A DNA stretch of 64,000 nucleotides from an uncultured Clostridia bacterium (GTDB lineage: Bacteria; Bacillota; Clostridia; Tissierellales; DATGTQ01). The notes under the pieces are model-generated. The model did no database searches. It saw only the letters and a program-made list of their open reading frames with translations, and had not been told where the DNA came from. A program made the translations under genes and the position numbers. Every line of letters begins with the position of its first letter. Position 1 is the first letter of the stretch. Positions 10,137-42,670 of the stretch are shown piece after piece. Location: the NCBI GenBank assembly GCA_964447805.1, contig CAYUTQ010000009.1, positions 2,025 to 66,024 on the forward strand, written 5' to 3'.

Positions 10137-10688
10137 ATGAACTTGATGACAATATAGGAGAAATTGATCCTGAAAAACTGCTTTGTTAATAATTGATATG
10201 CAAAATGTATTTATTCTTAGACATTCTGGAGAAAATTTATCTGGGAAAGAAAATTGGGAAAGCTGGTAACTATTTTATGACAAAATGGAACATGTTGTAA
10301 CTCTAAATATTAAAAATTTGTTAGATATACTTAGAGGAAAAAAATGGAAGCCATATTTGCTAAAATAATTTGCCAAAAGAAAGATAGTAGAGATAGGTAT
10401 TTAGATCAAAAAGCAACTGGTTTTAATGAATTATTACTTCCTCTTGGTTCAAAAGAAGGAGAAATAATTGATGAATTAAAACTTATTGAAGATGAAATAA
10501 TAGTAATGAAGACAACTAATAGTGCTTTAACAGGAACAAATTTACACAATATAGGTATCGATACTATTATAGTAATTGGAGTATTTACTGACCAATGTGT
10601 TTTTTGTATAGTTAGAAGTTTAGCAAATGAAAGTTTCAAAGTATACTTGATTGAAGATGGTTGTATGGCTGCGACTGAAGAAATTTAA
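10137..10688 (+). pseudogene. Isochorismatase/cysteine-hydrolase family gene (nicotinamidase-like), disrupted
   Basis: KTALLIIDMQN (from 10174) is preceded by an in-frame TGA, and an A5 run at 10173..10177 separates it from the upstream frame. There is an in-frame TAA at 10267..10269. The frame then changes at the A7 run 10338..10344 into ORF 10344..10688, which carries VMKTTNSALTGTNL and VIGVFTDQCV (Lys and Cys of the catalytic triad). Confidence 0.7.
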
Positions 10689-12407: not shown

Positions 12408-12604
12408 AATAGCCACCTCCTTAAAAGAAAGCAGATTATTTAAATCTTATTACATAATATGGATAGTACTACTAATATGTTAATTGGAATTAAAATATAT
12501 TTGTTTTTTTAGAAGTTTAGTATATGCTATAATATTAAGGAAGAATAGGAAAAAATTTATGTTAATAATGATTGTCTTTAAATAATAAGTTAGGAGGATG
12601 TATT

Positions 12605-14335
12605 GTGGATTATTTAGAAAAATATAAACTATGGCTAAATGATGATTTTTTTGATGAGGAGACTAAGAAAGAATTAGAAAAAATTAAGAATGATTTAGAA
12701 GAAATAAAGGATCGTTTTTATACAGATTTAACTTTTGGAACTGCAGGTTTAAGAGGAAAATTGGGAGCAGGGACCAATAGAATGAACAAATATACTGTGG
12801 CTTTAGCAACTCAAGGGCTAGCTAAAACTATTAAAGGTTATGGTAAAAATGCTATGGATAGAGGAGTGGTAATAGCATATGATGTAAGGCATAAATCAGT
12901 TGAATTTGCTGAGATAGCTTCTTTGGTTTTGGCTGCTAATGGTATTAAGGTATATTTATTTGAGGATATAAGACCTACTCCAGAACTTTCTTATGCTATT
13001 AGGAAATTAGGTACTATTTCTGGAATAGTTATAACTGCTAGTCACAATCCTAAAAATTATAATGGGTATAAAGTATATTGGGAGGAAGGTTCTCAAATAT
13101 TAGAAGATATAGCTGAAGATATTCTTTCAAATATAAATAATATAAAAAGATTTTCTGATATAAAAACTATGAATAAAAAAGATGCAATAGAAAATGGAAT
13201 GCTTACATACATTGGAAAAGAAATAGATGATGAATATATAAATAAAGTAAAAGCTCTTGCAATAAATGATGATATAAATAAGAATATAAAAATAGTATAT
13301 ACTCCTTTGAATGGAACAGGGAATATTCCTGTAAGGAGAGTATTGAAAGAACGAGGATTTACTGAAATTTATGTGGTTTCAGAACAAGAAAAGCCTGATC
13401 CAGATTTTACTACAGTAGGATATCCTAATCCAGAAGATATGAAAGCTTTTGATTATGCTCAAAAGTTAGGTAAAAATGTAAATGCAGATCTTCTTTTGGC
13501 AACAGATCCAGATTGTGATAGAGTAGCTTGTATGGTTAAAAATAATGATAATAACTATGTATTTTTAAATGGTAATCAGACGGGAGCACTTTTAGTAGAT
13601 TATATTTTGTCATCAAGGCAAAAACAAAATAATATTCCTAAAAATGGAGTTATTGTAAAATCAATTGTTACTGGTGATTTAAGTAAAGTTATAGCCTCTA
13701 AATATGGAGTTGGAACAGTTGAAACATTAACAGGATTTAAACATATATGTAACAAAGCCAATGAATATGACAAGACTAAAGAACATACTTTTATATTTGG
13801 TTATGAGGAGAGTATAGGGTATGTATATGATACTTTGGTTAGAGATAAGGATGCTGTTATATCTTCTATGTTAATAGTTGAAATGGCTGCCTATTATAAA
13901 AAAGCTGGTAAGACATTATTAGACAAATTGGAAGAATTGTATGAAGAATACGGTTATTATAAAGAAAAGCTTATTTCTATAGTATTAGAAGGACTAGAAG
14001 GAGTTGAAAAAATTCAAAATGCAATGGAAAATTTTAGACAAGATCCAATTAAAAAAATAGGGAATATGAGATTAGTAAAATATACAGATTATTTAACAGA
14101 AGAAGTAATAGATTTAGAAAGTGGAAATGTAACTAAAACAGATACTCCTAAATCCAATGTTTTAAAATATGTATTTGATGATGGTAGCTGGTATGCAATA
14201 AGACCATCTGGTACAGAACCAAAATTGAAAGTATATATTTATTCAAAAGATGATAATGAAGATATTGCGTTTGAAAAGGTAAGAAAAATAGAAAAAATTA
14301 CAACAGATAAGATTAATGCTCAAACCTTGGTATAA
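12605..14335 (+). CDS. Phosphoglucomutase/phosphomannomutase (alpha-D-phosphohexomutase, PgcA-like)
   Basis: Active-site loop GIVITASHNPKNYNGYK, metal loop ATDPDCDRV, and the GYEESIGY sugar-binding loop. AGGAGGA precedes the GTG at 12605; the track ORF starts at an upstream in-frame TTG at 12572. Confidence 0.9.
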   Translation: MDYLEKYKLWLNDDFFDEETKKELEKIKNDLEEIKDRFYTDLTFGTAGLRGKLGAGTNRMNKYTVALATQGLAKTIKGYGKNAMDRGVVIAYDVRHKSVEFAEIASLVLAANGIKVYLFEDIRPTPELSYAIRKLGTISGIVITASHNPKNYNGYKVYWEEGSQILEDIAEDILSNINNIKRFSDIKTMNKKDAIENGMLTYIGKEIDDEYINKVKALAINDDINKNIKIVYTPLNGTGNIPVRRVLKERGFTEIYVVSEQEKPDPDFTTVGYPNPEDMKAFDYAQKLGKNVNADLLLATDPDCDRVACMVKNNDNNYVFLNGNQTGALLVDYILSSRQKQNNIPKNGVIVKSIVTGDLSKVIASKYGVGTVETLTGFKHICNKANEYDKTKEHTFIFGYEESIGYVYDTLVRDKDAVISSMLIVEMAAYYKKAGKTLLDKLEELYEEYGYYKEKLISIVLEGLEGVEKIQNAMENFRQDPIKKIGNMRLVKYTDYLTEEVIDLESGNVTKTDTPKSNVLKYVFDDGSWYAIRPSGTEPKLKVYIYSKDDNEDIAFEKVRKIEKITTDKINAQTLV

Positions 14336-14350
14336 TACCAAGGTTTTTTT
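14322..14350 (+). terminator. Rho-independent terminator after the phosphoglucomutase gene
   Basis: AAACCTTGGTA pairs with TACCAAGGTTT and TTTTT follows. The hairpin overlaps the stop codon. Confidence 0.7.
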
Positions 14351-14415
14351 ATGTTTTATGAATAATTTATCAATAATATCAAAAAATACTAGATAGAAAG
14401 AAGTTTTAATAAGGA

Positions 14416-16872
14416 GTGGTTAAAATTAAGGCTGTAATTATGTCAGGTGGTCAAGGAACTAGATTGAGACCTCTAACTTGTCAACTTCCTAAACCTATGG
14501 TTTCTATTTTAAATAAACCAGTAATGGAATATGCAGTAGAATTGTTAAAAAAAAGTAAGATTGAAGAAATAGGTGTTACTTTATATTATTTATCTTCATG
14601 TATTATAGATTATTTTCAAGATGGTAGTAAATATGATGTTAATATAAGATATTTTGTAGAAGAAAAACCCTTAGGTACAGGTGGTAGTGTAAAAAATGCA
14701 GGAAAATTTTTAGATGATACTTTTGTTGTAGTAAGTGGAGATGCTTTTACTAATATAAATTTGAAAAGAGCTCTAAAATTTCATAGAGAAAGAAATTCTA
14801 AGGCTACTCTTGTATTAAAAAAGGAACCTATACCTTTAGAATATGGAGTAGTAATAACAAATAAGGATGGAAAGATAACTAAATTTTTAGAGAAACCCAG
14901 TTGGGGAGAAGTTTTTAGTGACACAATAAACACTGGAATATATATATTGGAGCCAGAAGTAATGGAGTATTATGAACTAGGCGAGAAATTTGATTTTAGC
15001 AAAGATTTATTTCCTAAACTTTTGAAGGATGGTATACCTATGTATGGATATATTACTAATGAGTATTGGTGTGATATAGGGGATTTAGATACTTATATTA
15101 ATACTCAAAGAGATATTTTAAGTGGAAGAGTCAAGGTACCTTTAAAATCTTATGAAATAGAAAAAGGAATTTGGGTGGGAGAAGGTACTATTATTGAAGA
15201 AGGTGTAAAAATTCATCCTCCTGTTTATATAGGAGAAAATAATGTAATTAAAAAAAATACTATTTTGGATTCTTATACAGTGATAGGAAACAATTGTTAT
15301 TTGGATAGTAATAGTTTTTTAAAAGGAACAATTTTATGGGATAATGTAAAAATTTTAGAAAATGTAGAAGTAAGAAGGTCAGTTGTTTGTGATCATGTAA
15401 ATATAGGTAAGAAAGCTAAGATAAAAGAAAATACAGTTATAGGGTCACATTCAAAAATAGATAAAGAAGTCCATGTTCAAAAAGGAATAAAGATATGGCC
15501 ACATAAAAAAGTAGGTGAAAAAATGGTAATTGGTGAAAATATAATCTGGTCTACTAAGATGACTAATAAAATATTTGGATATAGAGATGTATCTGGACGA
15601 ATTGATGTAGATTTAACACCGGAAAGAGTTACTAAGATAGGAATAGCATTTGGATATTGTATTAAAAATAATGGAACATTTGTTGTAAGTTGTGATGGCT
15701 CAAATACTTCTGAAGCTATAAAAAATTGTATAAATTCGGGGTTAATATTTTCTGGAGGAGAAGTAATTGATTTGGGAAATAGTCCAATATCAGCTTTAAG
15801 ATTTGGTGTTAGATATTTTGGTGGAGATGGGGGCATATATGTAAGAAATGATTATTTAGATAAAAATAAAATTTCTATTGAATTTGTAGAAAAAGCAGGT
15901 TCAAACATTGATAGAAATATTGAAAGAAAAATAGAAAATATTCTTATGATAGAAGATTTTGAAAGATGCAAGGGAGACAACTTAAAAGAAGTAATAAAAA
16001 TAGATAACTTTTACTCTATTTACAAAGAAGAAGGTCAAAAAATTCTTAATAACAAGAATTTAACTGAAGAAAAGCAACCAAAAGTTTTGATAGTATCCAA
16101 ATCAGATTATATTTTATTATTAGCAAAAGAGTATTTGTCAACTATTGGTTGTATTGTGGAGATAGTAAGTTTGTCTCATAAATCTACTATAGATGAAAAT
16201 AATATGAAAGATTTGGGTAAGCAAGTTGCTAGTAAAAAAATGAATTTAGGAATATTTTATAAAAATAATGGTGAAAATATATTTTTAATAGATAATAAAG
16301 GTAGAATTATAAAAGATGAACAATATTTTCTTTTAACTTCATTTTTAGGATTAAAAAGTAGGGAAATTGAGGAAATAGTTATACCTTATAATTTTCCCAG
16401 TGTTATTAATAAGTTAGTAGATAAATATAAAGGTAAAATAATTGTAAGTAAAACTTATCCAACAGAAGTAATGAGAGAAATGATTAAAAAAGATTATTTT
16501 TGTCAATATATTTTAAATTTTGATCCAATATGGGGTTCTGGGAAGTTAATAGATTATTTAGTAGGAGAAAACAAAAATTTAAGCGATTTAGTAGATGAAT
16601 TACCAGAATACTATTATATTAAAAAAGAATTATCTTGTAATTGGGAAGACAAAGGTAAAGTAATTAGACTTTTAATAGAAGATAATAATGAGAAAATAGA
16701 AATGTTTGAAGGTATAAAAATTAAGAATGATAAAGGCTGGGCTTTAATTTTACCAGATAAGGAAAAACCACATTTCAATCTTTATGTAGAGGGTTTCCAG
16801 GAGGAATATGCTGAAGAATTGTCTGATTTATATGAAAAGAAGATAAAAATGCTCTTAAAAGATAATACCTAA
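14416..16872 (+). CDS. Sugar-1-phosphate nucleotidyltransferase (NTP_transferase plus left-handed beta-helix) fused to a degenerate phosphohexomutase-like module
   Basis: N-terminus AVIMSGGQGTRLRPLT, hexapeptide-repeat middle region, and a C-terminal half collinear with PGM/PMM domains I-IV. The start is uncertain: the GTG at 14416 overlaps the AAGGAG RBS, an in-frame ATT at 14425 would give MKAVIM, and an ATG at 14440 is also possible. Confidence 0.8.
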   Translation: MVKIKAVIMSGGQGTRLRPLTCQLPKPMVSILNKPVMEYAVELLKKSKIEEIGVTLYYLSSCIIDYFQDGSKYDVNIRYFVEEKPLGTGGSVKNAGKFLDDTFVVVSGDAFTNINLKRALKFHRERNSKATLVLKKEPIPLEYGVVITNKDGKITKFLEKPSWGEVFSDTINTGIYILEPEVMEYYELGEKFDFSKDLFPKLLKDGIPMYGYITNEYWCDIGDLDTYINTQRDILSGRVKVPLKSYEIEKGIWVGEGTIIEEGVKIHPPVYIGENNVIKKNTILDSYTVIGNNCYLDSNSFLKGTILWDNVKILENVEVRRSVVCDHVNIGKKAKIKENTVIGSHSKIDKEVHVQKGIKIWPHKKVGEKMVIGENIIWSTKMTNKIFGYRDVSGRIDVDLTPERVTKIGIAFGYCIKNNGTFVVSCDGSNTSEAIKNCINSGLIFSGGEVIDLGNSPISALRFGVRYFGGDGGIYVRNDYLDKNKISIEFVEKAGSNIDRNIERKIENILMIEDFERCKGDNLKEVIKIDNFYSIYKEEGQKILNNKNLTEEKQPKVLIVSKSDYILLLAKEYLSTIGCIVEIVSLSHKSTIDENNMKDLGKQVASKKMNLGIFYKNNGENIFLIDNKGRIIKDEQYFLLTSFLGLKSREIEEIVIPYNFPSVINKLVDKYKGKIIVSKTYPTEVMREMIKKDYFCQYILNFDPIWGSGKLIDYLVGENKNLSDLVDELPEYYYIKKELSCNWEDKGKVIRLLIEDNNEKIEMFEGIKIKNDKGWALILPDKEKPHFNLYVEGFQEEYAEELSDLYEKKIKMLLKDNT

Positions 16873-16894
16873 TAAGTGTGAAAGGAAGAGTTAG

Positions 16895-19800
16895 ATGTAT
16901 TTAAAATTTATTATATTAGCTTTTTTAGTAAGCTTTTTAGCTGGTTACATAGTTTTGAGTTTAAGAAAAGAAAAAGATAAAGAATTTTTAGAAGTAAAAG
17001 ATGTGTTATTGACTCCTGATGAATTAATAAGTCATGGAAGAGAATTGGGAAGATTACATTATATTGATAAAAAAAAGAATGTGAAAAAGCTTCTTTTATA
17101 TAGATTGGATAAAAATTTTGCTGTTATAGAAGATATTTACTTAAAATTTAATAAAGATATCAATAATGGTATGTCTTTGCCTAGGGCAGCTGAGTGGATT
17201 TTAGATAATTTTTATATTATAGAACTTCAATACAAAAGAGCAAGACGAAGTATAGAAAGTGAAAAAGAATTGGTACTAAATACTTTAAAATCAGGTCCAT
17301 TAAAAGGTTATCCTAGAATTTATGCTATTGTGTTGGATTTAGTAGCTCATTCGGAAGGAGTAGTAACAGAAGGAAATTTAATAAGTTTTATAGATTCATA
17401 TCAAAAAGAAAAAGTTCTTACAATTAGGGAAGTTTCTTCACTATCTTTAATGTTAAATATTGCTTTATTAGAGTATATTAAATCTATTGTAATACTTATA
17501 GAAGAAATTCAAAAAAATTGGAGAGAAGCAGAAAAAATTAATTTATCTATTCTTTTAGAAACAGATACAATAGTTAATAATATTTTTAAAGCTGATACTT
17601 CTTATATAGAGCATTTACTTAGGAGAATTAAGAGTGAAAGGGAAGATTATAATAATATAATAAGTTTTATTGATAAAAAATTGAACTATTTAGGTACAGA
17701 TATAAATTCTGTATTAGAAAAAGAATATAAGAAACAAGGTTCCATAAAGATTTCAATAGGAAATGGTATTACAAGTTTGAAATCTATTTCTAATTTAAAT
17801 TGGGAAGATATATTTGAACAACTTTGTTTAGTTGAAAGAATACTAAAAAAAGATCCTGCTAATATTTATGATAAAATGGATTCTCAGTCTCGAAATTACT
17901 ATAGATATCAAGTTGAAAAGCTTACTAAAGTTTTAAAAACAGAAGAAGCATATATTTCTAGTAAAGCATTAGAATTTGCGAAAATTAAAGCAGCGGAAGG
18001 AAAAAATGATAAGTCAAGTCATATTGGATACTATATTGTAGACAAAGGCAGAGATAAAATTTTTGAAAACTTAGGTTATAACAATTCTAAGAATGGTATC
18101 TATTATAAACATATTGATATATATACTATTCCTATTATATTTTTAACTTTATTTACAGCTTTTTTATTTTGTCGTTATGTTTTTTTAAAGAGTAATTTTT
18201 GGTTGAGTTTATTAGTTGGAGTTGTAATATTAATTCCTATTAGTAATATTTCAATAATTTTAGTTAATTTTATTTATTCAAAATTAATAAACCCTGTGTT
18301 GTTACCAAAGCTTGAATTGAAAGAGGAAATACCTGAAGAATTATCTACTATTGTGGTAATGCCTACTCTTTTGTTTAATGAAGAAAGAGTAGAAGAATTG
18401 TGTGAAAAATTAGAAATTTATTATTTAGCAAATAAAGAAGAAAATTTATATTTTTCAATAATTGGAGATTTTAAAGATGGTCCAGATGAGGTTAGCAAAG
18501 AAGATAGAAAAATAATTGAGAAAGGTCTAGAATGTATAGAAAAATTAAATAGAAAATATAGTAAAGGACATAATATTTTTTATTTTTTCCATAGAAAAAG
18601 AGTTTATAGTGGCAATGAAAAAAGATGGATGGGTTGGGAAAGAAAAAGAGGAGCTTTAATAGAATTTAATAGTTTAATATTAGGGGATGATAATACAACT
18701 TTTAATGTTATTTCCAGTGACATATCATTATTGAGAGAAAAAATAAAATATGTAATAACTTTAGATGGAGATACACAACTTCCTTTAGATACAGCAAAAA
18801 AATTAATTGGAACTATTAGTCATCCTTTAAATAGGCCTATTTTTGATGAAGATAAAAATATTGTTATAGAAGGTTATGGATTGATTCAACCTAGAATAAT
18901 AATAGATATAGAGAGTGGAAATAAATCTTTATTTACTAGAATTTATGCAGGACAAGGAGGAATTGATCCTTATACAACAGCAGTATCTGATATATATCAG
19001 GATTTATTTGGAGAAGGTATATTTGTAGGTAAGGGTATTTATCAATTAGATGTATTTCAAAAATGTTTAAAAGATAGTATTCCGGAAAACACCATATTGA
19101 GTCATGATTTATTAGAAGGAAGTTTTGTAAGAGTTGGATTAGCAACAGATATAGAATTAGTTGATGGATATCCAGAAAAGTACAATTCATATATAATGAG
19201 ACAACATAGATGGGTTAGAGGCGATTGGCAGCTTATAAAGTGGTTAGGAAGAAAGAAAACTATCTTGTCTAAGCTGTCTAAGTGGAAAATATTTGATAAT
19301 CTTAGAAGAAGTTTAATATCTATTAGTTTAACATTATTGATAATTTTAGGGTTGATTTTTTTCCCAGGGAACGTAATGTATTGGATGAGTTTAGCTTTAT
19401 CGACTATATTTTTCCCATTTTTATTATCAGTAATCGATGTAATATTTTTCAATGGTATGAAATTTGACAGATGGAAATTAAATGGCAATATAATCACTGG
19501 ACCAACAGGTTATCTATATCAAGGAATTTTATATTTTATGTTTTTGCCTTATGAAGGCTATATAATGGCAGATGCTATATTGAGAACCCTTTATAGAGTT
19601 TTTATTTCTAAAAAAAATTTGCTTCAGTGGACTACAGCATTTGAAATAGAGAAAAATTTAGGTAATAGTTTAATAAACTATTTTAGACGAATGTCAAAAA
19701 ATATAGTTGTAGCTTTTTTGACTATTATTTTAACTTATTTTATACATTATGAAAATATTATATTAGCAGGTTTGATTGGTACATTGTGGATTGTAGCACC

Positions 19801-22800
19801 TTATTTTGCATATTTAATTAGTAAGGAAGAAATTGAATATGTGAAATTAGATTTTCAAAACATAAGAACTTTGAGAAGAATAGGAAGAAAAACATGGGAT
19901 TATTACGAAAAGTATACTGATGAAAAAAATAATTTTTTGCCACCAGACAATTATCAAGAATATCCATATAATGGATTAGCTTATAGAACATCACCTACTA
20001 ATATAGGCTTTTATTTGATGGCAGTACTTTCAGCTAGGGATTTTGGATATATAACTACAACACAAATGATTAATTTAATAAATAGAACTTTGCAGACTAT
20101 AAGAAAGATGGAAAAATGGAATGGACATTTATATAATTGGTATAATACTACAACTTTGAAGCCTTTAAGGCCTTATTTTGTTTCTACTGTAGATAGTGGA
20201 AATTTTGTATCTTATCTTATTACTTTAAAAGAAGGAATTGAAGAATATCTATATAAACCATTAATAGATAAAGTTTTTTTGGAAGGTATAAAGGATACAA
20301 TAGAATTAATAGAAAATCGTGAGATACAAATGGTATTAGTTGATGAAGGATTAGATAGTATTGAAGATTTATCTATGTGTAAAATAAATAATTTAATAGT
20401 GAAAGCTAATAGAGCCAAAAAAGATAAAAAGGATAAATGGATAGAAGAAACAATAATTCAACTTTATAATCTGAAAGAAGTGTATGAAAAGTATTTTCCC
20501 AATGATGAAATTAATAAAAAATCATGTGGAGATATAAAATATTCTTTTTCAGCAATAGAATTGGAAATTTATTATGATGAAGTTCTTTCTTTTTTAGAAG
20601 ATAATGAATTAGAATTAGAGATTAATAAATTAAATATAAATGTTAAAAATCTAATATCTGATATGAAAATGGCAATTGTTGAAATAGAAGAACTAATAAA
20701 GGAAACAAAATTTGCTCCTTTATATGATTTTAAAAAAGATTTATTTTCTGTAGGTTATAATGTTCAAGACAAAGTATTATTGAATTCTTATTATGATTTA
20801 TTGGCATCTGAGGCTAGAATTACAAGTTATATAGCTATATCAAGAAGAGAAGTACCTAAAGAACATTGGTTTAAATTGGGGAGGCCTTTAATAATTAAAA
20901 AAGGATATAGAAGTTTAGCTTCTTGGTCTGGAACTATGTTTGAATATTTGATGCCCTCTTTAGTAATGAAAAATTTTAAAAATACTCTATTAGATGAAAG
21001 TTACAAAACTGTAATAAAGCTTCAAAGAAGTTATTGTAAGAGAAATAAAATACCTTGGGGAATATCGGAATCAGGTTTTTTTGCATTTGATTCTAATTTA
21101 AATTATCAATATAAAGCTTTTGGAGTTCCTTATTTAGGTTTTAAAAGAGGACTAAAAGAAGATTTAGTAGTATCCCCTTATGCTACTTTTTTAGTTCTAC
21201 CCTTTGAACAAGAAAAAGTTTTAGAAAATATTCATAGTTTGATATATGAAGGCTTAGAAGGAGAATATGGTTTTTATGAGGCTATAGATTATACTAAAAA
21301 AAGGCTTCCTATAGATATGGGTAAAGCTGTAGTAAAAAGCTATATGACTCATCATCAAGGAATGATTATTACAGCAATAAATAATGTGTTAAATAATAAT
21401 ATTATGATTCAACGGTTTCACAATTATTCCCAAATGAAATGTGGAGAATTGTTATTACAAGAAAAAGTTCCAATTAATATTATTGTGGCAAAAGAGAAGG
21501 AAAATTTACAAGATACAAATCAAGAAGAATTTAAAGATGAAGGAGTAGTTGTACGTAGTTTTAATAAGAATAGTTTAAATACTTTAAAATGTCATATACT
21601 TTCTTCTGGAGATTACTCTACAATGCTTACAAATAGAGGGGAAGGTTATTCGAAAAAAAATGATATTTTTATAAATAGATGGCGTAAAGATATATTTTCT
21701 AGAGAATATGGAATGTTTATATATATAAAAAATTTAAAGAATAATACTTACTGGTCTACAACTTATAAACCAACAAATAAAATACCAGATGATTATAGAG
21801 TTAAATTTTCTAGTGATAAAGCAACTTTTTATAGAACCGATGGGTTGATTGAAACAAAAATGGAGGTAGTTCTTCTTTCGGAAGAAGATGGAGAAATTAG
21901 AAAAGTAACTATTACAAATAATTCATCGGAAGAGGCTTTAATAGATGTGACCAGTTATTTTGAAGTAGTGGGAGATAGGTACGAATCTGATTTGGCTCAT
22001 CCAGTATTTAATAATTTATTTGTTAGGACTATGAAATTAGAAGATTATGAGGCAGTATTAGCTCACAGACGGACAAAGGAAGGAGAGCAAAAAAAGGTTT
22101 GGATAACTCATAGTGTTAAGGATTTTCAAGAAAATACTACTGGTTTTCAATGTGAGACCAATAGAGTTAATTTTGTTGGCCGTTGTAGAGATTTATCTAA
22201 TCCTATTGGATTGGAAAAGGGGTTGTCTAATACTACTGGTGTGGTTTTAGATCCAATTCTTAGTTTAAACAAAAGGCTTAGAATTAAAGGTGGGGGAAGT
22301 AGTGAAATCTATTTTGTGACTAGTATTAATGAGAGTAAAAAAGATGCCTATAAGATAATACAAAGGTATCAAGATAAGTTGAGTTTTTCGAGAGCTTTTA
22401 ATTTAGCTTATACTCGTAGCCAAACAGAAATAAGTTATTTAAATTTCAAACCAACCCAAATCAAAATGTTTGATAATATGTTATCTAGTTTATTGTTTTT
22501 AAATACTGCTAATAAAACAAAATATAAGTCTATATTGAAAGATAGTATGAAAGGTCAGGAAGGATTATGGGCTTATGGAATTTCTGGAGACAATCCTATA
22601 GTTTTGGTAACTATTAAGACTATGGAAGGTATAGATGTTTTAAAAGAGATGTTGAAAGCACATGAATACTGGTTCTTTAAAGGATTGAGAGTTGATTTAA
22701 TTGTATTAAATGGTGATGAAAGTTCCTATTATCAGCCGTTATTAGAACGTATAAATGAAGTAATTTATGAATATAGAGGAAATGTAGTAGAGACACCAGG

Positions 22801-25420
22801 GGGTATATATATATGCAGTAAAAATAACATGGCTTATGAAGATGTAGCATTGTTTTATAAATGGGCTAATTTAATAATAGATTGTGAAGAAGGTTTCGAA
22901 AAAGAAGAAAAAGTTAAAGAAAATATTCCCAATAAAAAATTCACCTCAGGGTCTAAAAATTATCCAACTACTGAACTAGAATTGGAATTGGAAAAATTCA
23001 ATGGTTATGGAGGATATTCACAGGATGGTAAGGAGTATATTATTAAATTAACTGAGGAAGTTAATACACCTCTTCCTTGGATTAATGTTATTGGAAATAA
23101 AAAATTTGGATTTATAGTATCAGAACAAGGAACTGGATTTAGTTGGTCATACAATAGTAGAGAAAACAAACTTACTCCTTGGTTCAATGATCCAATAAGC
23201 GATATTTCAGAAGAGATAATATATATAAGAGATGATGATACAGGTGAAGTGTGGGCAATTACTCCTTGGCCTGTAAGGAATGAGGAAGCTTATGTCATTT
23301 CTCATGGATTTGGTTATACACATTTTTATCATAATAGCAAAGGTTTTGAACAAAAGCTTACTATGTTTGTACCTAAAGATGATAATATCAAGATAAATTT
23401 GTTAAAGTTTAAGAATATTTCTGGTTTTGAAAGAAAACTTACTATATTTTATTATGTGAGACCTGTATTAGGGGTGACAGATGAAGAGACAGAAATGTTT
23501 ATAGAAACTAGTATGAGTGATGAAGAAACAATGTTAGCTAAAAACTCAACCAATACTCAGTTTAAAGATAGTACAATATTTGTTGGGACTTCTGAAAAAA
23601 TAAAAAGCTATACAGGAGATAGAATTGAATTTTTAGGTTTTAGTTCAACATTTAAGCATCCAGAGGGCACCAAGAAAGAGCGATTATCAAATAGAGTAGG
23701 ATTAGGTCTCAACCCCTGTTGTGCTATAGAGGTACCTATGATTTTGCAAAATGGGGAAGAAAAAGAAATAGTATTTTTATTAGGAGAAAGTAGAGATGAA
23801 GTAGAAGGAAAAAATTTAATTATTAAATATAGAGATTTAGAATTTTCTAAAAGAACATTGAAAAAAATAAAAGAATTTTGGGAAGATATATTAGGTAAGA
23901 TAAAAATAGAAACTCCTGATAAATCTATGAACCTGCTTATGAACTATTGGTTAATGTATCAAACTATTATATCACGACTTTGGTCTAGAACAGGGTTTTA
24001 TCAAGTAGGAGGGGCATTTGGTGCAAGGGATCAAATGCAAGATAGTATAAATAGTATATATTTTTTACCAGAGGAAACCAAAAATCAAATTTTAAATAAT
24101 TGTAAACATCAATTTGTAGAAGGAGATGTACAACATTGGTGGCATCCAATTCCTGATGCGAAAGTTCATAAAGGTATAAGAAGTAAATGTTCTGATGATC
24201 TTTTATGGTTACCGTATGGAGTAAGTAAATATATAGAAGTGACAGGTGATTATAATATTCTTTATGAAAATGTACCTTTTATCGAAAGTAATATTCTTGA
24301 AGATGAAGAATATGAAAGATATGAGACTCCTACATTGTCAAAAGAAACAGGAACAATATATGAACATTGTATTAGGGCTATAGAAAAATCTTTAAAATTT
24401 GGTAAAAGAGGATTGCCCCTTATAGGAACAGGGGACTGGAATGATGGAATGAGTAGAGTTGGCTACAAAGGAGAAGGAGAAAGTATTTGGTTAGGTTGGT
24501 TTTTAGGAACAGTTTTACAAAAATTCATATTAATATGTGAAAAAACAGGTGATATTGAAAGAAAAGAAAGGTATGAAGAAATAATTAATAAATTAAAAAA
24601 TGCCATTGAAAAAAATGGTTGGGATGGAGAATGGTATTTAAGAGCTTATTTTGATGATGATACACCTTTGGGTTCTAAAAAAAGTAGAGAGTGTATTATT
24701 GATTCAATAGCTCAATCATGGGCAGTTATTTCAACTTTAGGTGATGAAGAAAGATCTAAAATTGCTATGAATTCAGTTGAAAAGTATTTAGTAAACGAAG
24801 AAGAAGGTATAATAAAACTACTTTCACCACCTTTTGATGAAAGTGAACCAGATCCAGGATATATAAAAAGTTATGTACCAGGTGTTAGAGAAAATGGTGG
24901 ACAATATACTCATGCTGCAACTTGGGTTATAAATGCATTTGCTCTTTTAGGTGATGGAAATAAGGCTTGTGAGTTATTTAGTTTAATAAATCCTATAAAC
25001 CATACAAGAACTAAAATCGAATGTACAACTTATAAAGTTGAACCTTATGTGATGGCAGCTGATGTATATACTACACCTTCTATATTAGGCAGAGGAGGAT
25101 GGACTTGGTATACAGGTTCTTCTGGATGGATGTATAGAGTAGGTTTGGAGAATATATTAGGATTTAAAAAAGAAGGGAATAAGTTATTTATAAATCCATG
25201 TATTACGAAAGAATGGGAAAGCTATAGTATAAGATATCGATTTATGGAAACTGAATATAATATTGAAGTAAAAAATCCTTATAGGATAAATAGGGGAGTT
25301 AATTATATAAAACTGGATGGTGAAATATTAAAATCAAATTATGTATCACTTGTAAATGATAAAAAACAGCATTTTATAGAGGTAGTTTTAGGTAGTTACA
25401 AAGAAAACCTCATTCCTTAA
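16895..25420 (+). CDS. Cyclic beta-1,2-glucan synthase-like multidomain enzyme (Cgs/ChvB/NdvB architecture: TM, GT84, TM, cyclization-type domain, GH94)
   Basis: 2841 aa. GT motifs are LDGDTQLP (about aa 625), SHDLLEG and QHRWVRGDWQ (about aa 770). TM blocks lie at about aa 400-470 and 790-960. Glucoamylase-like motifs are STVDSGNF (about aa 1097) and ISESGFFAFD. The GH94-like C-terminus carries PLPWINVIGN, GDWNDGM (about aa 2514) and RENGGQYTHAATW. Confidence 0.85.
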   Translation: MYLKFIILAFLVSFLAGYIVLSLRKEKDKEFLEVKDVLLTPDELISHGRELGRLHYIDKKKNVKKLLLYRLDKNFAVIEDIYLKFNKDINNGMSLPRAAEWILDNFYIIELQYKRARRSIESEKELVLNTLKSGPLKGYPRIYAIVLDLVAHSEGVVTEGNLISFIDSYQKEKVLTIREVSSLSLMLNIALLEYIKSIVILIEEIQKNWREAEKINLSILLETDTIVNNIFKADTSYIEHLLRRIKSEREDYNNIISFIDKKLNYLGTDINSVLEKEYKKQGSIKISIGNGITSLKSISNLNWEDIFEQLCLVERILKKDPANIYDKMDSQSRNYYRYQVEKLTKVLKTEEAYISSKALEFAKIKAAEGKNDKSSHIGYYIVDKGRDKIFENLGYNNSKNGIYYKHIDIYTIPIIFLTLFTAFLFCRYVFLKSNFWLSLLVGVVILIPISNISIILVNFIYSKLINPVLLPKLELKEEIPEELSTIVVMPTLLFNEERVEELCEKLEIYYLANKEENLYFSIIGDFKDGPDEVSKEDRKIIEKGLECIEKLNRKYSKGHNIFYFFHRKRVYSGNEKRWMGWERKRGALIEFNSLILGDDNTTFNVISSDISLLREKIKYVITLDGDTQLPLDTAKKLIGTISHPLNRPIFDEDKNIVIEGYGLIQPRIIIDIESGNKSLFTRIYAGQGGIDPYTTAVSDIYQDLFGEGIFVGKGIYQLDVFQKCLKDSIPENTILSHDLLEGSFVRVGLATDIELVDGYPEKYNSYIMRQHRWVRGDWQLIKWLGRKKTILSKLSKWKIFDNLRRSLISISLTLLIILGLIFFPGNVMYWMSLALSTIFFPFLLSVIDVIFFNGMKFDRWKLNGNIITGPTGYLYQGILYFMFLPYEGYIMADAILRTLYRVFISKKNLLQWTTAFEIEKNLGNSLINYFRRMSKNIVVAFLTIILTYFIHYENIILAGLIGTLWIVAPYFAYLISKEEIEYVKLDFQNIRTLRRIGRKTWDYYEKYTDEKNNFLPPDNYQEYPYNGLAYRTSPTNIGFYLMAVLSARDFGYITTTQMINLINRTLQTIRKMEKWNGHLYNWYNTTTLKPLRPYFVSTVDSGNFVSYLITLKEGIEEYLYKPLIDKVFLEGIKDTIELIENREIQMVLVDEGLDSIEDLSMCKINNLIVKANRAKKDKKDKWIEETIIQLYNLKEVYEKYFPNDEINKKSCGDIKYSFSAIELEIYYDEVLSFLEDNELELEINKLNINVKNLISDMKMAIVEIEELIKETKFAPLYDFKKDLFSVGYNVQDKVLLNSYYDLLASEARITSYIAISRREVPKEHWFKLGRPLIIKKGYRSLASWSGTMFEYLMPSLVMKNFKNTLLDESYKTVIKLQRSYCKRNKIPWGISESGFFAFDSNLNYQYKAFGVPYLGFKRGLKEDLVVSPYATFLVLPFEQEKVLENIHSLIYEGLEGEYGFYEAIDYTKKRLPIDMGKAVVKSYMTHHQGMIITAINNVLNNNIMIQRFHNYSQMKCGELLLQEKVPINIIVAKEKENLQDTNQEEFKDEGVVVRSFNKNSLNTLKCHILSSGDYSTMLTNRGEGYSKKNDIFINRWRKDIFSREYGMFIYIKNLKNNTYWSTTYKPTNKIPDDYRVKFSSDKATFYRTDGLIETKMEVVLLSEEDGEIRKVTITNNSSEEALIDVTSYFEVVGDRYESDLAHPVFNNLFVRTMKLEDYEAVLAHRRTKEGEQKKVWITHSVKDFQENTTGFQCETNRVNFVGRCRDLSNPIGLEKGLSNTTGVVLDPILSLNKRLRIKGGGSSEIYFVTSINESKKDAYKIIQRYQDKLSFSRAFNLAYTRSQTEISYLNFKPTQIKMFDNMLSSLLFLNTANKTKYKSILKDSMKGQEGLWAYGISGDNPIVLVTIKTMEGIDVLKEMLKAHEYWFFKGLRVDLIVLNGDESSYYQPLLERINEVIYEYRGNVVETPGGIYICSKNNMAYEDVALFYKWANLIIDCEEGFEKEEKVKENIPNKKFTSGSKNYPTTELELELEKFNGYGGYSQDGKEYIIKLTEEVNTPLPWINVIGNKKFGFIVSEQGTGFSWSYNSRENKLTPWFNDPISDISEEIIYIRDDDTGEVWAITPWPVRNEEAYVISHGFGYTHFYHNSKGFEQKLTMFVPKDDNIKINLLKFKNISGFERKLTIFYYVRPVLGVTDEETEMFIETSMSDEETMLAKNSTNTQFKDSTIFVGTSEKIKSYTGDRIEFLGFSSTFKHPEGTKKERLSNRVGLGLNPCCAIEVPMILQNGEEKEIVFLLGESRDEVEGKNLIIKYRDLEFSKRTLKKIKEFWEDILGKIKIETPDKSMNLLMNYWLMYQTIISRLWSRTGFYQVGGAFGARDQMQDSINSIYFLPEETKNQILNNCKHQFVEGDVQHWWHPIPDAKVHKGIRSKCSDDLLWLPYGVSKYIEVTGDYNILYENVPFIESNILEDEEYERYETPTLSKETGTIYEHCIRAIEKSLKFGKRGLPLIGTGDWNDGMSRVGYKGEGESIWLGWFLGTVLQKFILICEKTGDIERKERYEEIINKLKNAIEKNGWDGEWYLRAYFDDDTPLGSKKSRECIIDSIAQSWAVISTLGDEERSKIAMNSVEKYLVNEEEGIIKLLSPPFDESEPDPGYIKSYVPGVRENGGQYTHAATWVINAFALLGDGNKACELFSLINPINHTRTKIECTTYKVEPYVMAADVYTTPSILGRGGWTWYTGSSGWMYRVGLENILGFKKEGNKLFINPCITKEWESYSIRYRFMETEYNIEVKNPYRINRGVNYIKLDGEILKSNYVSLVNDKKQHFIEVVLGSYKENLIP

Positions 25421-42149: not shown

Positions 42150-42360
42150 AGAAATATTTCTGCGGTGTGCGCTATCCCTATAATTCAACCGACATTGAAT
42201 ATACGGGAGTCTGTGTTCAGCAATGTATGATAGGCCTCTTTTATAAAGGAAATCAAAAATTGTTGACAGGGCACCCACCTTGTGAGAGGCGGGTGTGAAT
42301 TAGTTGGGAATACGGCATCGCGGAATAAAAAACCCTTTGGTTAGATCCAAGGGGTTTTTT
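42150..42360 (+). ncRNA. ssrS: Structured GC-rich RNA, best read as 6S RNA (ends approximate)
   Basis: This is the only GC-rich non-coding island in the window. The 5' UUCUGCGGUG pairs with the 3' CAUCGCGGAA, extended by CUAUCCC/GGGAAUA and UAAUUCA/UGAAUUA, giving a long interrupted closing helix. An internal imperfect helix (ACAUUG/CAAUGU, GCAAU/AUUGU, CUGU/ACAG) and a 3'-side hairpin (CACCCACC/GGCGGGUG) are also present. The end sequences resemble the E. coli 6S termini (AUUUCUCUGAGAUG...GGCAUCUCGGAGAUUC). An intrinsic terminator lies at 42327..42360. Confidence 0.5.
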
Positions 42361-42427: not shown

Positions 42428-42670
42428 ATGTTTTTAGTTTGTCCGCTATGCAATGGTTTATATGAAATTCAACAAAAATGTTTTATTTGTAATAATGACA
42501 TGGTGGATAGGGGACCAATTGTCAATTATCTAGATGATTATAGCCCTTATCTATTAGATGATATTACAACTTTAGTGGACGGAGTTGAAAAAGAAAAATG
42601 TGTTCATTTATTTTACTGCAACAATTGTAATTATGATAAAAGAGTAGTTATAAGTAAAAAAGAAATTTAG
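42428..42670 (+). CDS. Small Cys-rich (zinc-ribbon-like) protein, 80 aa
   Basis: CPLC...CFIC and C...CNNC pairs are present. AGAGAAGGTG precedes the ATG. Confidence 0.55.
   Translation: MFLVCPLCNGLYEIQQKCFICNNDMVDRGPIVNYLDDYSPYLLDDITTLVDGVEKEKCVHLFYCNNCNYDKRVVISKKEI

What the first reader, a model, noticed from the sequence alone, without database searches (positions are those of the whole stretch)
12605..25420. Self-contained cyclic beta-1,2-glucan synthase-like module in a monoderm Firmicute
A 2841-aa ORF carries the Cgs/ChvB/NdvB domain order. That order is TM segments, a GT84-like glycosyltransferase (LDGDTQLP, SHDLLEG, QHRWVRGDWQ), a second TM block, a glucoamylase-like cyclization-type region (STVDSGNF, ISESGFFAFD), and a GH94 phosphorylase-like C-terminus (GDWNDGM, RENGGQYTHAATW). 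On the same strand it is preceded by an intact phosphoglucomutase and an NDP-sugar pyrophosphorylase fusion. Together these encode the route Glc-6-P to Glc-1-P to NDP-Glc to glucan in about 13 kb. In proteobacteria the product is a periplasmic osmoprotectant and host-interaction factor. In a Gram-positive-type envelope there is no periplasm, and to my knowledge the physiological role of these homologues is unexplored. No exporter or modifying-enzyme gene is adjacent.
Basis: partly seen in the sequence, partly recalled or inferred. Interest (0 to 1): 0.6.

Follow-up and report, generated by a model that had tools for sequence, protein, structure and literature searches.

The report
Cyclic glucan synthase operon, spore-type promoter
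This is an intact gene for the giant enzyme that makes ring-shaped beta-1,2-glucans, a known family that is common in Clostridia; what stands out is that it is paired with a sugar-activating enzyme behind a conserved promoter resembling those used inside developing spores, which could explain why a bacterium with no periplasm makes this sugar.

Summary
ORF 16895..25420 (2841 aa) aligns end to end with the Agrobacterium Cgs cryo-EM structure (1819 bits). It keeps every catalytic or priming residue I checked in all three modules: GT84, the GH189 cyclase and the GH94 phosphorylase.

The host is an endospore-forming monoderm: it has no BamA or LpxC, and it has SpoIVA and SASPs.

The enzyme is not new. 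Cgs occurs in 62 of 401 sampled genomes of this phylum, and the cyclization domain of a Firmicute Cgs (Thermoanaerobacter italicus, PDB 8WY1) has been shown to make cyclic glucan in vitro.

The "self-contained pathway" holds only in part.
- The 818-aa upstream gene lies directly before cgs in 15 of 18 Firmicute loci and is probably co-transcribed with it.
- Its N-half resembles a UDP-glucose pyrophosphorylase (PDB 8X7S).
- Its C-half is a phosphohexomutase fold that has lost all four catalytic motifs.
- pgm is a separate unit with its own terminator, and the genome also has GalU.
- No ChvA-type exporter was found.

The main addition is a conserved promoter, ATGWATA-N15-CAnAnAATA, between the pgm terminator and the fusion gene. 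It scores in the top 0.8% of the genome's upstream regions with a forespore (sigma-F/G) matrix, alongside sigG, spoVT, spoIIR, bofC and sleB. Forespore expression is inferred, not shown.

The parts
12525..12533 (+). Sigma-A-like extended -10 (TGCTATAAT) upstream of pgm. This is an inferred housekeeping promoter.
   Evidence: Read directly from the sequence. No forespore-type motif is conserved upstream of pgm in the 6 loci that carry it.
12605..14335 (+). pgm: an intact alpha-D-phosphohexomutase of the PgcA-like long type, taken to convert Glc-6-P to Glc-1-P.
   Evidence: All four PGM_PMM Pfam domains are present. The motifs TASHNP, DPDCDR, GYEESIG and RPSGTEP are present. The GTG start at 12605 follows AGGAGG. 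The gene is 70-74% identical in 6 related loci.
14322..14356 (+). Intrinsic terminator of pgm: an 11-bp stem (14322..14346) plus a T-run, overlapping the stop codon.
14359..14388 (+). Conserved bipartite promoter of the fusion-cgs operon. The -35 is TGAATA (14359..14364), the spacer is 15 nt, and the -10 block is CAAAAAATA (14380..14388). It lies 27 nt before the GTG start and is of the forespore (sigma-F/G) type.
   Evidence: The exact site was located. These are the only invariant columns besides the RBS and start codon in a 13-locus alignment. The forespore matrix scores it at 14.3 bits, rank 16 of 1955 upstream regions. Sigma-E and sigma-K matrices score worse.
14416..16872 (+). 818-aa fusion. 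Residues 1-~375 are a sugar-1-phosphate nucleotidyltransferase plus a left-handed beta-helix, probably a UDP-glucose pyrophosphorylase. Residues ~385-818 are a phosphohexomutase fold without catalytic motifs (a pseudo-mutase).
   Evidence: Pfam finds NTP_transferase, LbH and PGM_PMM_I. The best PDB hit is 8x7s, UTP--glucose-1-phosphate uridylyltransferase, E 5e-65. The phospho-Ser, metal, sugar and phosphate loops are lost in all 34 orthologues examined. The gene is directly upstream of cgs in 15 of 18 loci.
16895..25420 (+). [quoted passage not shown] It starts 22 nt after the fusion gene's stop codon.
18302..19294 (+). GT84 (GT2-like) glycosyltransferase module, about aa 470-800. It carries D525, D624/D626, the priming Tyr Y693, D738 and R772-W773.
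   Evidence: Residue-level alignment to 8rf0, checked by script. Residue roles are taken from PMC10901819.
19856..21499 (+). GH189 cyclization (transglycosylase) domain, aa 988-1535. It carries E1306 (acid/base), E1350, E1392 (nucleophile) and H1486/H1487.
   Evidence: 8wy1 (T. italicus) scores 559 bits. Identity is 55% over the 286 core residues. Residue roles are from PMC10834661.
23009..25396 (+). GH94 phosphorylase module, aa 2039-2834. It carries D2379, the catalytic acid D2517 and the conserved GQYTH motif.
   Evidence: Pfam PF06165 and PF17167. Alignments to 8rf0 and to cellobiose phosphorylases.

Best explanation

Inferred pathway:
1. A separately transcribed, intact PgcA-like phosphoglucomutase supplies Glc-1-P.
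2. The 818-aa protein is encoded 22 nt upstream of cgs and almost certainly co-transcribed. Its CugP-like nucleotidyltransferase half activates Glc-1-P, probably to UDP-Glc. Its C-terminal half is a dead phosphohexomutase fold, perhaps a sugar-phosphate-sensing or docking module.
3. Cgs sits in the membrane through six core TM helices plus one extra N-terminal helix, with all enzyme domains on the cytoplasmic side.
4. Cgs autoglucosylates Tyr693 and elongates a beta-1,2 chain at the GT84 site (D525, D624/D626, D738, R772-W773).
5. It trims the chain by phosphorolysis at the GH94 site (D2517).
6. It closes the ring by transglycosylation at the GH189 site (E1392 nucleophile, E1306 acid/base). 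The product would be rings of roughly 17-25 glucoses.

The two-gene operon starts at a conserved promoter of the forespore (sigma-F/sigma-G) type, so the glucan is most likely made during sporulation, inside the forespore. No dedicated ChvA-type exporter was found.

What is shown: the sequence identity, the residue conservation, the synteny and the promoter conservation.
What is inferred: the enzyme activities, the nucleotide specificity, co-transcription, and the time and place of expression.

My odds: the gene is a true Cgs, 0.95. The product is a cyclic beta-1,2-glucan, 0.85. The operon is sporulation-controlled, about 0.55-0.6. It is specifically forespore-expressed, about 0.45-0.5.
For: Enzyme:
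- Collinear alignment to A. tumefaciens Cgs 8rf0/8rf9: 1819 bits, residues 77-2782.
- 559 bits to the T. italicus cyclization domain 8wy1.
- All residues named in PMC10901819, PMC10834661 and PMC11842490 are conserved.
- The hydropathy scan gives TM pairs at about 406-470, 803-856 and 937-975, plus one helix at 1-25. A. tumefaciens Cgs has six.
- GH94 Pfam domains score far above cut-off.

Partner gene:
- The full-length fusion is present in 14 of 41 genomes of the order. All 14 have cgs and the two genes are adjacent. None of the 26 genomes without cgs has it.
- The fusion lies directly upstream of cgs in 15 of 18 Firmicute loci, including Alkaliphilus and Tepidibacter.
- Its N-half is closest to a solved UTP--glucose-1-phosphate uridylyltransferase.

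Promoter:
- The invariant blocks ATG-ATA and CA-A-AATA stand in otherwise diverged spacers of 13 loci.
- I built a matrix from the mapped C. difficile sigma-F/G promoters (PMC3789822 Table S6). It ranks this site 16th of 1955 upstream regions.
- The same matrix places a SigG-type sigma gene, spoVT, spoIIR, a SpoIIQ-like M23 protein, BofC and a SleB-type hydrolase in the top 25.
- Nine further cgs-adjacent fusion genes in three more families carry CACAAAATAA or CAATACTAATAC -10 blocks. Ten fusion genes not linked to cgs carry nothing similar.

Host: SpoIVA, SASPs, no BamA and no LpxC.
Against: - There are no expression data.
- The promoter matrix comes from another species, and the genome is 27% GC, so chance matches are common.
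- A strict version of the operon motif is not enriched genome-wide: 6 sites against 0-7 in ten shuffles.
- Three of 15 orthologous loci score poorly: G016, G009 and Tepidibacter.
- In a few loci a sigma-E matrix scores as well or better: L097, L098, L105 and L106.
- Cgs is not confined to spore formers. 55 of 62 cgs+ genomes have SpoIVA against 268 of 339 cgs- genomes, and one small-genome lineage has cgs without SpoIVA.
- The fusion family is general in the phylum (194 of 401 genomes), so it is not dedicated to Cgs everywhere.
- Its nucleotide and sugar specificity is unproven. It falls below every NCBIfam cut-off, and the top hit is a mannose-1-P guanylyltransferase model at 239 bits against a cut-off of 440.
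- The genome's GalU could supply UDP-Glc on its own.
Confidence: 0.75

Rival explanations
1. The same enzyme and product, but used in vegetative cells as an osmoprotectant or envelope glucan, as in proteobacteria. On this view the conserved upstream motif is the site of another sigma factor or regulator, or the operon is read through from pgm.
For: - The role of cyclic glucans in proteobacteria is osmotic adaptation and host interaction (PMC10901819, PMC11842490).
- Cgs also occurs in a lineage without SpoIVA.
- Promoter matrices give many chance hits in AT-rich DNA.
Against: - No sigma-A-like hexamers are conserved in the 13-locus alignment, while the forespore-like blocks are invariant.
- A strong terminator separates pgm from the operon.
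- There is no periplasm and no ChvA equivalog: the best hit is 322 bits against a cut-off of 585.
Confidence: 0.25
2. The operon is sporulation-controlled but expressed in the mother cell from a sigma-E-type promoter (-35 ATA, -10 CATAnnnT). The glucan would then be destined for the cortex, coat or mother-cell cytoplasm.
For: - The -10 blocks CATAAAATA and CACAAAATA resemble the mother-cell CATA-type -10.
- The sigma-E matrix scores in the top 0.6-4.5% in loci L105, L097 and L098.
- The -35 elements of sigma-E and sigma-F/G promoters look alike (PMC3789822 Tables S6 and S7).
Against: - In most loci the forespore matrix outscores the sigma-E matrix at the conserved site. In the window it is 14.3 against 7.3.
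- The GC-richer families carry CAATACTAATAC, which is the forespore consensus.
- The sigma-K matrix fits poorly throughout.
Confidence: 0.12
3. The 818-aa fusion makes a different nucleotide sugar, for example GDP-mannose for a wall polymer, and sits next to cgs only by chance. Cgs would then draw on GalU-made UDP-Glc.
For: - The top NCBIfam model is a mannose-1-P guanylyltransferase, though below cut-off.
- The fusion family is in 194 of 401 genomes of the phylum, and most of those lack cgs.
- GalU is present in this genome.
Against: - Adjacency holds in 15 of 18 loci across several families, with a gap of only about 20-50 nt.
- In this order the fusion occurs only where cgs occurs.
- The closest solved structure is a UDP-glucose pyrophosphorylase, E 5e-65 against 1e-43 for GDP-mannose enzymes.
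- Only the cgs-linked copies carry the conserved promoter.
Confidence: 0.1
4. The protein degrades sophoro-oligosaccharides or beta-1,2-glucans by phosphorolysis rather than making them.
For: The GH94 and GH189/GH144-like modules belong to families that also contain degradative enzymes (PMC11842490).
Against: - The membrane-embedded GT84 module is intact, with all UDP-binding and catalytic residues and the priming tyrosine.
- The T. italicus GH189 domain only transglycosylates and does not hydrolyse (PMC10834661).
- No other GH94 or GH144-like gene is in the genome, and no uptake system is adjacent.
Confidence: 0.03

Closest known systems
[quoted passage not shown]
   Same: - Same length class (2841 aa against about 2830).
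- Same order of NTD, GT84, GH189 cyclase and GH94 modules.
- Six matching TM helices.
- All named residues conserved: At D527/D624/D626/Y694/D739/R773, E1300/E1386 and D2393/D2528 correspond to D525/D624/D626/Y693/D738/R772, E1306/E1392 and D2379/D2517.
   Different: - About 35-43% identity only.
- The host is a monoderm spore former.
- There is an extra N-terminal TM helix, present in about half of the Firmicute orthologues.
- No ChvA/NdvA/Cgt exporter and no succinyl or glycerophosphoryl modifying genes were found.
- The upstream partner is a nucleotidyltransferase fusion.
- The promoter is of sporulation type.
Thermoanaerobacter italicus Cgs cyclization domain (TiCGS-Cy/Tg, PDB 8WY1, founding member of GH189; PMC10834661)
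   Same: - Also from a Firmicute.
- 55% identity over the 286-residue catalytic core.
- Catalytic E1356/E1442, E1400 and H1536/H1537 are all conserved, with a constant offset of 50 residues.
   Different: Only the isolated T. italicus domain has been assayed. No full-length Firmicute Cgs has been tested, nor any in vivo product or physiological role.
CugP-type (non-GalU) UDP-glucose pyrophosphorylase. PDB 8X7S is deposited as UTP--glucose-1-phosphate uridylyltransferase. The CugP class is described in Maeda et al. 2014, cited in PMC7133116.
   Same: The N-terminal 320 residues align at E 5e-65, with the GGxGTRLRPLT loop and a left-handed beta-helix tail. This is a better match than to GDP-mannose pyrophosphorylases.
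   Different: - Fused to a roughly 430-residue dead phosphohexomutase fold.
- The specificity is untested.
- That 8X7S itself is a cyanobacterial CugP is my recollection and was not verified here.
Catalytically inactive paralogues that regulate nucleotide-sugar enzymes (GMPPA with GMPPB, PDB 7D72; eIF2B epsilon/gamma)
   Same: A conserved enzyme fold that has lost its catalytic residues is kept next to an active NTP-transferase/LbH module. These proteins appear among the PDB hits.
   Different: Here the dead module is a phosphohexomutase fold fused in cis. No regulatory role has been shown, so this is an analogy only.
Forespore (sigma-F/sigma-G) regulon promoters of Clostridioides difficile and Bacillus subtilis (PMC3789822)
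   Same: A -35 of TGWATA, a spacer of about 14-15 nt, and an A-rich -10 ending in AATA or ACTA. In this genome the site ranks alongside sigG, spoVT, spoIIR, bofC and sleB.
   Different: No glucan synthase or UDP-glucose enzyme appeared among the forespore promoters of the C. difficile table I read. Assignment here rests on sequence alone.

Membership tests
[quoted passage not shown] | Single polypeptide collinear with characterised Cgs over all modules | tested here: met
   8rf0 and 8rf9: E = 0, 1819 bits, query 77-2782 against chain 68-2793.
[quoted passage not shown] | GT84/GT2-type catalytic set: UDP-binding Asp, DxD, catalytic base, QxxRW | tested here: met
   D525, D624-G-D626, SHD738 and QHR772-W773. 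Residue roles are from PMC10901819.
[quoted passage not shown] | Autoglucosylated priming tyrosine in the IF1h loop | tested here: met
   GIDPY693 aligns with At Y694. Glycosylation itself cannot be tested here.
[quoted passage not shown] | GH189 cyclase catalytic pair and supporting residues | tested here: met
   E1306, E1392, E1350 and H1486/H1487 align with Ti E1356, E1442, E1400 and H1536/H1537.
[quoted passage not shown] | GH94 phosphorylase domain with its catalytic Asp | tested here: met
   PF06165 at 465 bits and PF17167 at 434 bits. D2517 in GDWND and D2379 in RDQ.
[quoted passage not shown] | Six TM helices with the soluble domains cytoplasmic | tested here: met
   The hydropathy scan gives three TM pairs at the positions aligned to At TM1-6, plus one extra N-terminal helix. 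This is a crude method and the topology is inferred.
[quoted passage not shown] | Makes cyclic beta-1,2-glucan from UDP-Glc | not testable with these tools
   Needs a biochemical assay or MS/NMR of cell extracts.
Proteobacterial periplasmic cyclic-glucan system (Cgs + ChvA/NdvA/Cgt exporter, periplasmic destination) | Dedicated ChvA-type ABC exporter | tested here: not met
   TIGR01192: the best hit in the genome is 321.6 bits against a cut-off of 585.4. These are generic ABC exporters, as in all 14 control genomes. The neighbouring ABC-2 transporter is not syntenic.
Proteobacterial periplasmic cyclic-glucan system (Cgs + ChvA/NdvA/Cgt exporter, periplasmic destination) | Outer membrane and periplasm | tested here: not met
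   No Omp85/BamA and no LpxC in a genome that is 99.65% complete.
alpha-D-phosphohexomutase (C-terminal half of the 818-aa protein) | Catalytic phospho-Ser loop (TASHNP), metal loop (DxDxDR), sugar loop (GEQSGH) and phosphate loop (RPSGTEP) | tested here: not met
   The fold is recognised (PF02878, and TIGR03990 over residues 385-809). All four loops are replaced or deleted in the window protein and in 33 orthologues. It has the fold but is not an active enzyme of the family.
UDP-glucose pyrophosphorylase (N-terminal half of the 818-aa protein) | Specificity for UTP and Glc-1-P | tested here: inconclusive
   The best PDB hit is a UTP--Glc-1-P uridylyltransferase (8x7s, E 5e-65). The protein is below cut-off for every NCBIfam equivalog, including ManC, RmlA, GlgC, GlmU and GalU.
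Forespore (sigma-F/sigma-G) regulon | Promoter matching the forespore consensus at a conserved position | tested here: met
   14.3 bits, rank 16 of 1955. The blocks are invariant in 13 loci. [quoted passage not shown] Cgs-linked copies in three more families also carry such a motif, and unlinked copies do not.
Forespore (sigma-F/sigma-G) regulon | Transcription dependent on sigF or sigG in the forespore | not testable with these tools

The most novel reading that the evidence does not exclude
In spore-forming Clostridia the fusion-cgs operon belongs to the forespore programme. Cyclic beta-1,2-glucan would then be a spore molecule, made at the forespore membrane late in development. It would either be kept in the spore core as a non-reducing protectant that aids dehydration, or be released into the space between the two forespore membranes where the cortex forms. 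That space is the only periplasm-like compartment a monoderm ever has. The dead mutase domain of the partner enzyme might tune UDP-glucose supply to sugar-phosphate levels, or dock the enzyme onto Cgs.
Probability: 0.45. Interest if true: 0.8.

Novelty: new member of a known kind. Interest (0 to 1): 0.45.

Why it matters
Cyclic beta-1,2-glucans are known as periplasmic osmoprotectants and as host-interaction factors of Brucella, Agrobacterium and rhizobia. Why bacteria without a periplasm keep a 2800-residue synthase has not been addressed in the literature I could search. Yet about one in seven sampled genomes of this phylum carries it.

The enzyme here is ordinary. Its conserved context gives a concrete, cheap hypothesis to test: that cyclic glucan is a sporulation product. 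That context is a co-transcribed sugar-activating enzyme, the absence of an exporter, and a promoter of the forespore type conserved across many families.

If the hypothesis holds, it would add a new class of molecule to spore biology, relevant to resistance, dormancy or germination. It would also explain the distribution of the family in Firmicutes.

The family-wide dead mutase domain fused to a nucleotidyltransferase is a second, smaller open question.

Tried and rejected
- Riboswitch or leader RNA: Rfam at gathering threshold finds only a CRISPR array and 6S RNA in the window, and nothing near the operon.
- Sigma-70 scan: uninformative in this AT-rich DNA, with 35 sites against 32.5 expected.
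- Strict operon motif (TGWATA-N14-16-CAnAnAATA) as a genome-wide regulon mark: 6 sites against 0-7 in ten shuffles, so not enriched. I replaced it with a matrix trained on mapped C. difficile promoters.
- SASP gene upstream regions as a local training set: there were too few of them and the motifs were unclear.
- SpoIVA co-occurrence as a test of the sporulation link: not discriminating, at 89% of cgs+ genomes against 79% of cgs- genomes.
- Sigma-K promoter reading: poor scores, so rejected.
- The neighbouring ABC-2 transporter as the glucan exporter: it is convergent and not syntenic, so rejected.
- ChvA orthologue elsewhere in the genome: none above cut-off.
- Idea that the fusion is dedicated to Cgs everywhere: rejected, because the family is in 194 of 401 genomes of the phylum. 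Only a subclade is cgs-linked.
- Idea that the dead mutase is special to cgs-linked copies: rejected, because it is family-wide.
- Literature on Cgs in Gram-positives or in sporulation: nothing beyond the T. italicus domain work. PDB code 8X7S is in no held paper, and the CugP paper is not held.
Full report
**1. What is there**

The window is low in GC (23-34%). Three ORFs on the + strand occupy 12572/12605..25420.
- pgm. The likely start is GTG 12605, seven bases after AGGAGG. It carries all four PGM/PMM Pfam domains and the TASHNP, DPDCDR, GYEESIG and RPSGTEP loops. It is therefore an intact phosphohexomutase of the long PgcA-like type.
- Its stop codon lies inside an 11-bp hairpin followed by a T-run at 14322..14346.
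- After a 70-nt spacer comes an 818-aa gene (14416..16872).
- Twenty-two bases later comes the 2841-aa gene (16895..25420).

**2. [quoted passage not shown]

It aligns in one piece with the cryo-EM chains of Agrobacterium tumefaciens Cgs (8rf0/8rf9, E = 0, 1819 bits, residues 77-2782). It also aligns with the crystallised cyclization domain of Thermoanaerobacter italicus Cgs (8wy1, 559 bits; 55% identity over the 286-residue core). Pfam finds the GH94 sandwich and catalytic domains and the glucoamylase-like PF10091 domain.

I took the residue roles from the papers and read the alignments residue by residue. Every residue I checked is conserved (confirmed by script).
- GT84 module (PMC10901819): D527, D624/D626, Y694, D739 and R773 of the Agrobacterium enzyme correspond to D525, D624/D626, Y693, D738 and R772-W773.
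- Cyclase (PMC10834661; PMC11842490): Ti E1356, E1442, E1400 and H1536/H1537 correspond to E1306, E1392, E1350 and H1486/H1487.
- GH94 module: At D2393 and D2528 correspond to D2379 and D2517.

A hydropathy scan gives three TM pairs at the places of the six Agrobacterium helices, plus one extra N-terminal helix. That extra helix is present in about half of the Firmicute orthologues.

**3. The host**

The assembly is 2.1 Mb and 99.65% complete.
- It has no Omp85/BamA and no LpxC.
- It has SpoIVA and alpha/beta-type SASP genes.
- It is therefore a monoderm endospore former.
- The nearest named homologues are from Sporanaerobacter, Anaerosalibacter, [Clostridium] ultunense, Schnuerera and Caloranaerobacter. 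This points to Tissierellales, which is an inference.

**4. How new is it?**

It is not new as an enzyme.
- The search for homologous proteins returned thousands of relatives, with long lists from Clostridia.
- A genome scan found the family in many phyla, including Paenibacillus and an actinobacterium.
- In whole-genome samples, full-length Cgs is in 15 of 41 genomes of the order and 62 of 401 of the phylum, spanning 44 of 278 genera.
- The T. italicus domain has been shown to make cyclic glucans of DP 17-26 in vitro, and it defines GH189 (PMC10834661, PMC11842490).
- I found no paper on the in vivo product or role in any monoderm.

**5. The upstream 818-aa protein**

Pfam sees an NTP-transferase, a left-handed beta-helix and PGM/PMM domain I.

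The N-half:
- Its best solved relative is 8x7s, deposited as UTP--glucose-1-phosphate uridylyltransferase (E 5e-65). GDP-mannose pyrophosphorylases follow at 1e-43.
- It stays below every NCBIfam cut-off, so UDP-glucose formation is likely but unproven.

The C-half:
- It is collinear with archaeal-type phosphohexomutases (TIGR03990 over residues 385-809).
- Aligned to the genome's own GlmM, all four catalytic loops are gone. SASHNP reads VRNDYL, DGDADR reads KNNGEN, the GEQSGH loop is deleted, and RPSGTEP reads LPDKEKP.
- This holds in all 15 cgs-linked orthologues and in 19 further family members, ten of them not linked to cgs.
- The replacement LPDxExP is itself conserved, which suggests a retained non-catalytic role.

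**6. Synteny**

- The fusion gene lies immediately upstream of cgs in 15 of 18 Firmicute loci, including Alkaliphilus and Tepidibacter. None of the non-Firmicute loci shows this arrangement.
- In the order sample, the full-length fusion is in 14 genomes. All 14 have cgs and the genes are adjacent. None of the 26 genomes without cgs has it.
- At phylum scale the fusion family is much wider, at 194 of 401 genomes. Only a subclade is cgs-linked.
- pgm precedes the pair in only 6 of 18 loci.
- The genome also has a canonical GalU, a GlmU and a GlmM.
- The downstream ABC-2 transporter is convergent and not conserved.
- No ChvA equivalog exists in the genome.

The conserved unit is therefore fusion-cgs, not pgm-fusion-cgs.

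**7. The promoter**

Conservation:
- Thirteen loci from at least nine families share only two blocks besides the RBS and GTG start: ATG-ATA and, 15 nt later, CA-A-AATA. Mean column identity is otherwise 50%.
- In the window these are TGAATA 14359..14364 and CAAAAAATA 14380..14388. They lie 27 nt before the start codon and just after the pgm terminator.

Matrix test:
- I built a two-block weight matrix from the 41 mapped sigma-F and sigma-G promoters of C. difficile (Table S6 of PMC3789822).
- I scored 1955 upstream regions of this genome with it. The operon's site scores 14.3 bits, rank 16, the top 0.8%.
- The top 25 also contain a SigG-type sigma gene, spoVT, spoIIR, a SpoIIQ-like membrane M23 protein, BofC and a SleB-type cortex hydrolase (Pfam). 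The matrix therefore transfers to this organism.

Specificity:
[quoted passage not shown] In the window the scores are 7.3 and 3.7. Sigma-E does as well or better in four loci.
- Nine more cgs-linked fusion genes from three further families carry CACAAAATAA or CAATACTAATAC. The latter is almost the matrix consensus, and it occurs in GC-richer genomes.
- Ten fusion genes not linked to cgs carry nothing comparable.
- pgm has no such motif. It has a sigma-A-like TGCTATAAT instead.

**8. Limits of the sporulation reading**

- The matrix comes from another species, and AT-rich DNA gives many chance hits.
- A strict version of the motif is not enriched genome-wide.
- Three of 15 loci score poorly.
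- Cgs is only mildly associated with SpoIVA, at 55 of 62 against 268 of 339. It also occurs in one SpoIVA-less lineage that lacks the fusion as well.
- Several earlier follow-up notes of this scan reached the same idea on other genomes: e1-946672, e1-960340, e1-2865892, e1-946673 and e1-1480781. They are AI notes, not independent evidence.
- My odds are about 0.55-0.6 that the operon is sporulation-controlled and about 0.45-0.5 that it is forespore-specific.

**9. Mechanism proposed**

1. A housekeeping PGM makes Glc-1-P.
2. The fusion protein activates it, probably to UDP-Glc.
3. Cgs primes itself on Y693, elongates, trims by phosphorolysis and cyclizes, all on the cytoplasmic face of the membrane.

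With no dedicated exporter and no periplasm, the product has two likely fates. It may stay in the cytoplasm, which would be the spore core if expression is in the forespore. Or it may cross the inner forespore membrane into the intermembrane space where the cortex is built. Both fates are speculative.

**10. Verdict**

The enzyme is a new member of a known and already partly characterised family. The interest lies in the conserved operon partner with a dead mutase domain, and in the forespore-type promoter, which turns "what is Cgs for in a monoderm?" into a testable question.

Noticed in passing
window 7280..9638 (- strand): A CRISPR array of 36 identical 30-nt repeats (Rfam CRISPR-DR2), with no cas genes seen among the neighbouring ORFs I annotated. 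An earlier follow-up (e1-3578982) says the matching cas cluster lies elsewhere in the genome.
   Followed up: no
window 42154..42330 (+): 6S RNA gene: 86 bits against a gathering score of 46.
   Followed up: no
window 42428..42667 (+): An 80-aa Cys-rich ORF (CPLC...CFIC...CNNC) directly after 6S RNA. Its upstream region ranks 11th of 1955 with the forespore promoter matrix (14.6 bits). It has no Pfam hit. It could be a small zinc-binding forespore protein of the Gin/CsfB kind, which is a guess.
   Followed up: partly
window 47488..52875 (+): A 1795-aa signalling protein with domains in this order: Ser/Thr kinase, STAND/AAA_16 ATPase, TPR array, GAF, GGDEF, GAF. The architecture would link a kinase-STAND sensor to c-di-GMP synthesis.
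   Followed up: no
window 10344..10688 (+): The isochorismatase-family ORF matches only profile positions 59-154 of 175, so it is truncated at the N-terminus.
   Followed up: no
L095 13636..17011 (genome G016), same strand as the fusion-cgs pair: In one related genome, two ABC genes of about 560 aa each lie directly upstream of the fusion-cgs pair on the same strand. Only the ATPase part matched in my search. They are a candidate glucan exporter in that lineage. They were not seen at the other loci.
   Followed up: no
genome contig C2:77070 (glmU), outside the window: The upstream region of glmU ranks 9th of 1955 with the forespore promoter matrix (14.8 bits). Other nucleotide-sugar genes may therefore also have sporulation promoters here.
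   Followed up: no
family of the 14416..16872 product, loci L111-L129: The roughly 820-aa fusion of a nucleotidyltransferase with a dead phosphohexomutase is in 194 of 401 genomes of the phylum. It has lost the four mutase loops everywhere I looked, while keeping a conserved LPDxExP replacement. This is a widespread pseudo-enzyme domain with no known role.
   Followed up: partly
window 1956..4043 (+): A sigma-54 activator (Sigma54_activat domain) lies upstream of a transporter and a formamidase-like gene.
   Followed up: no
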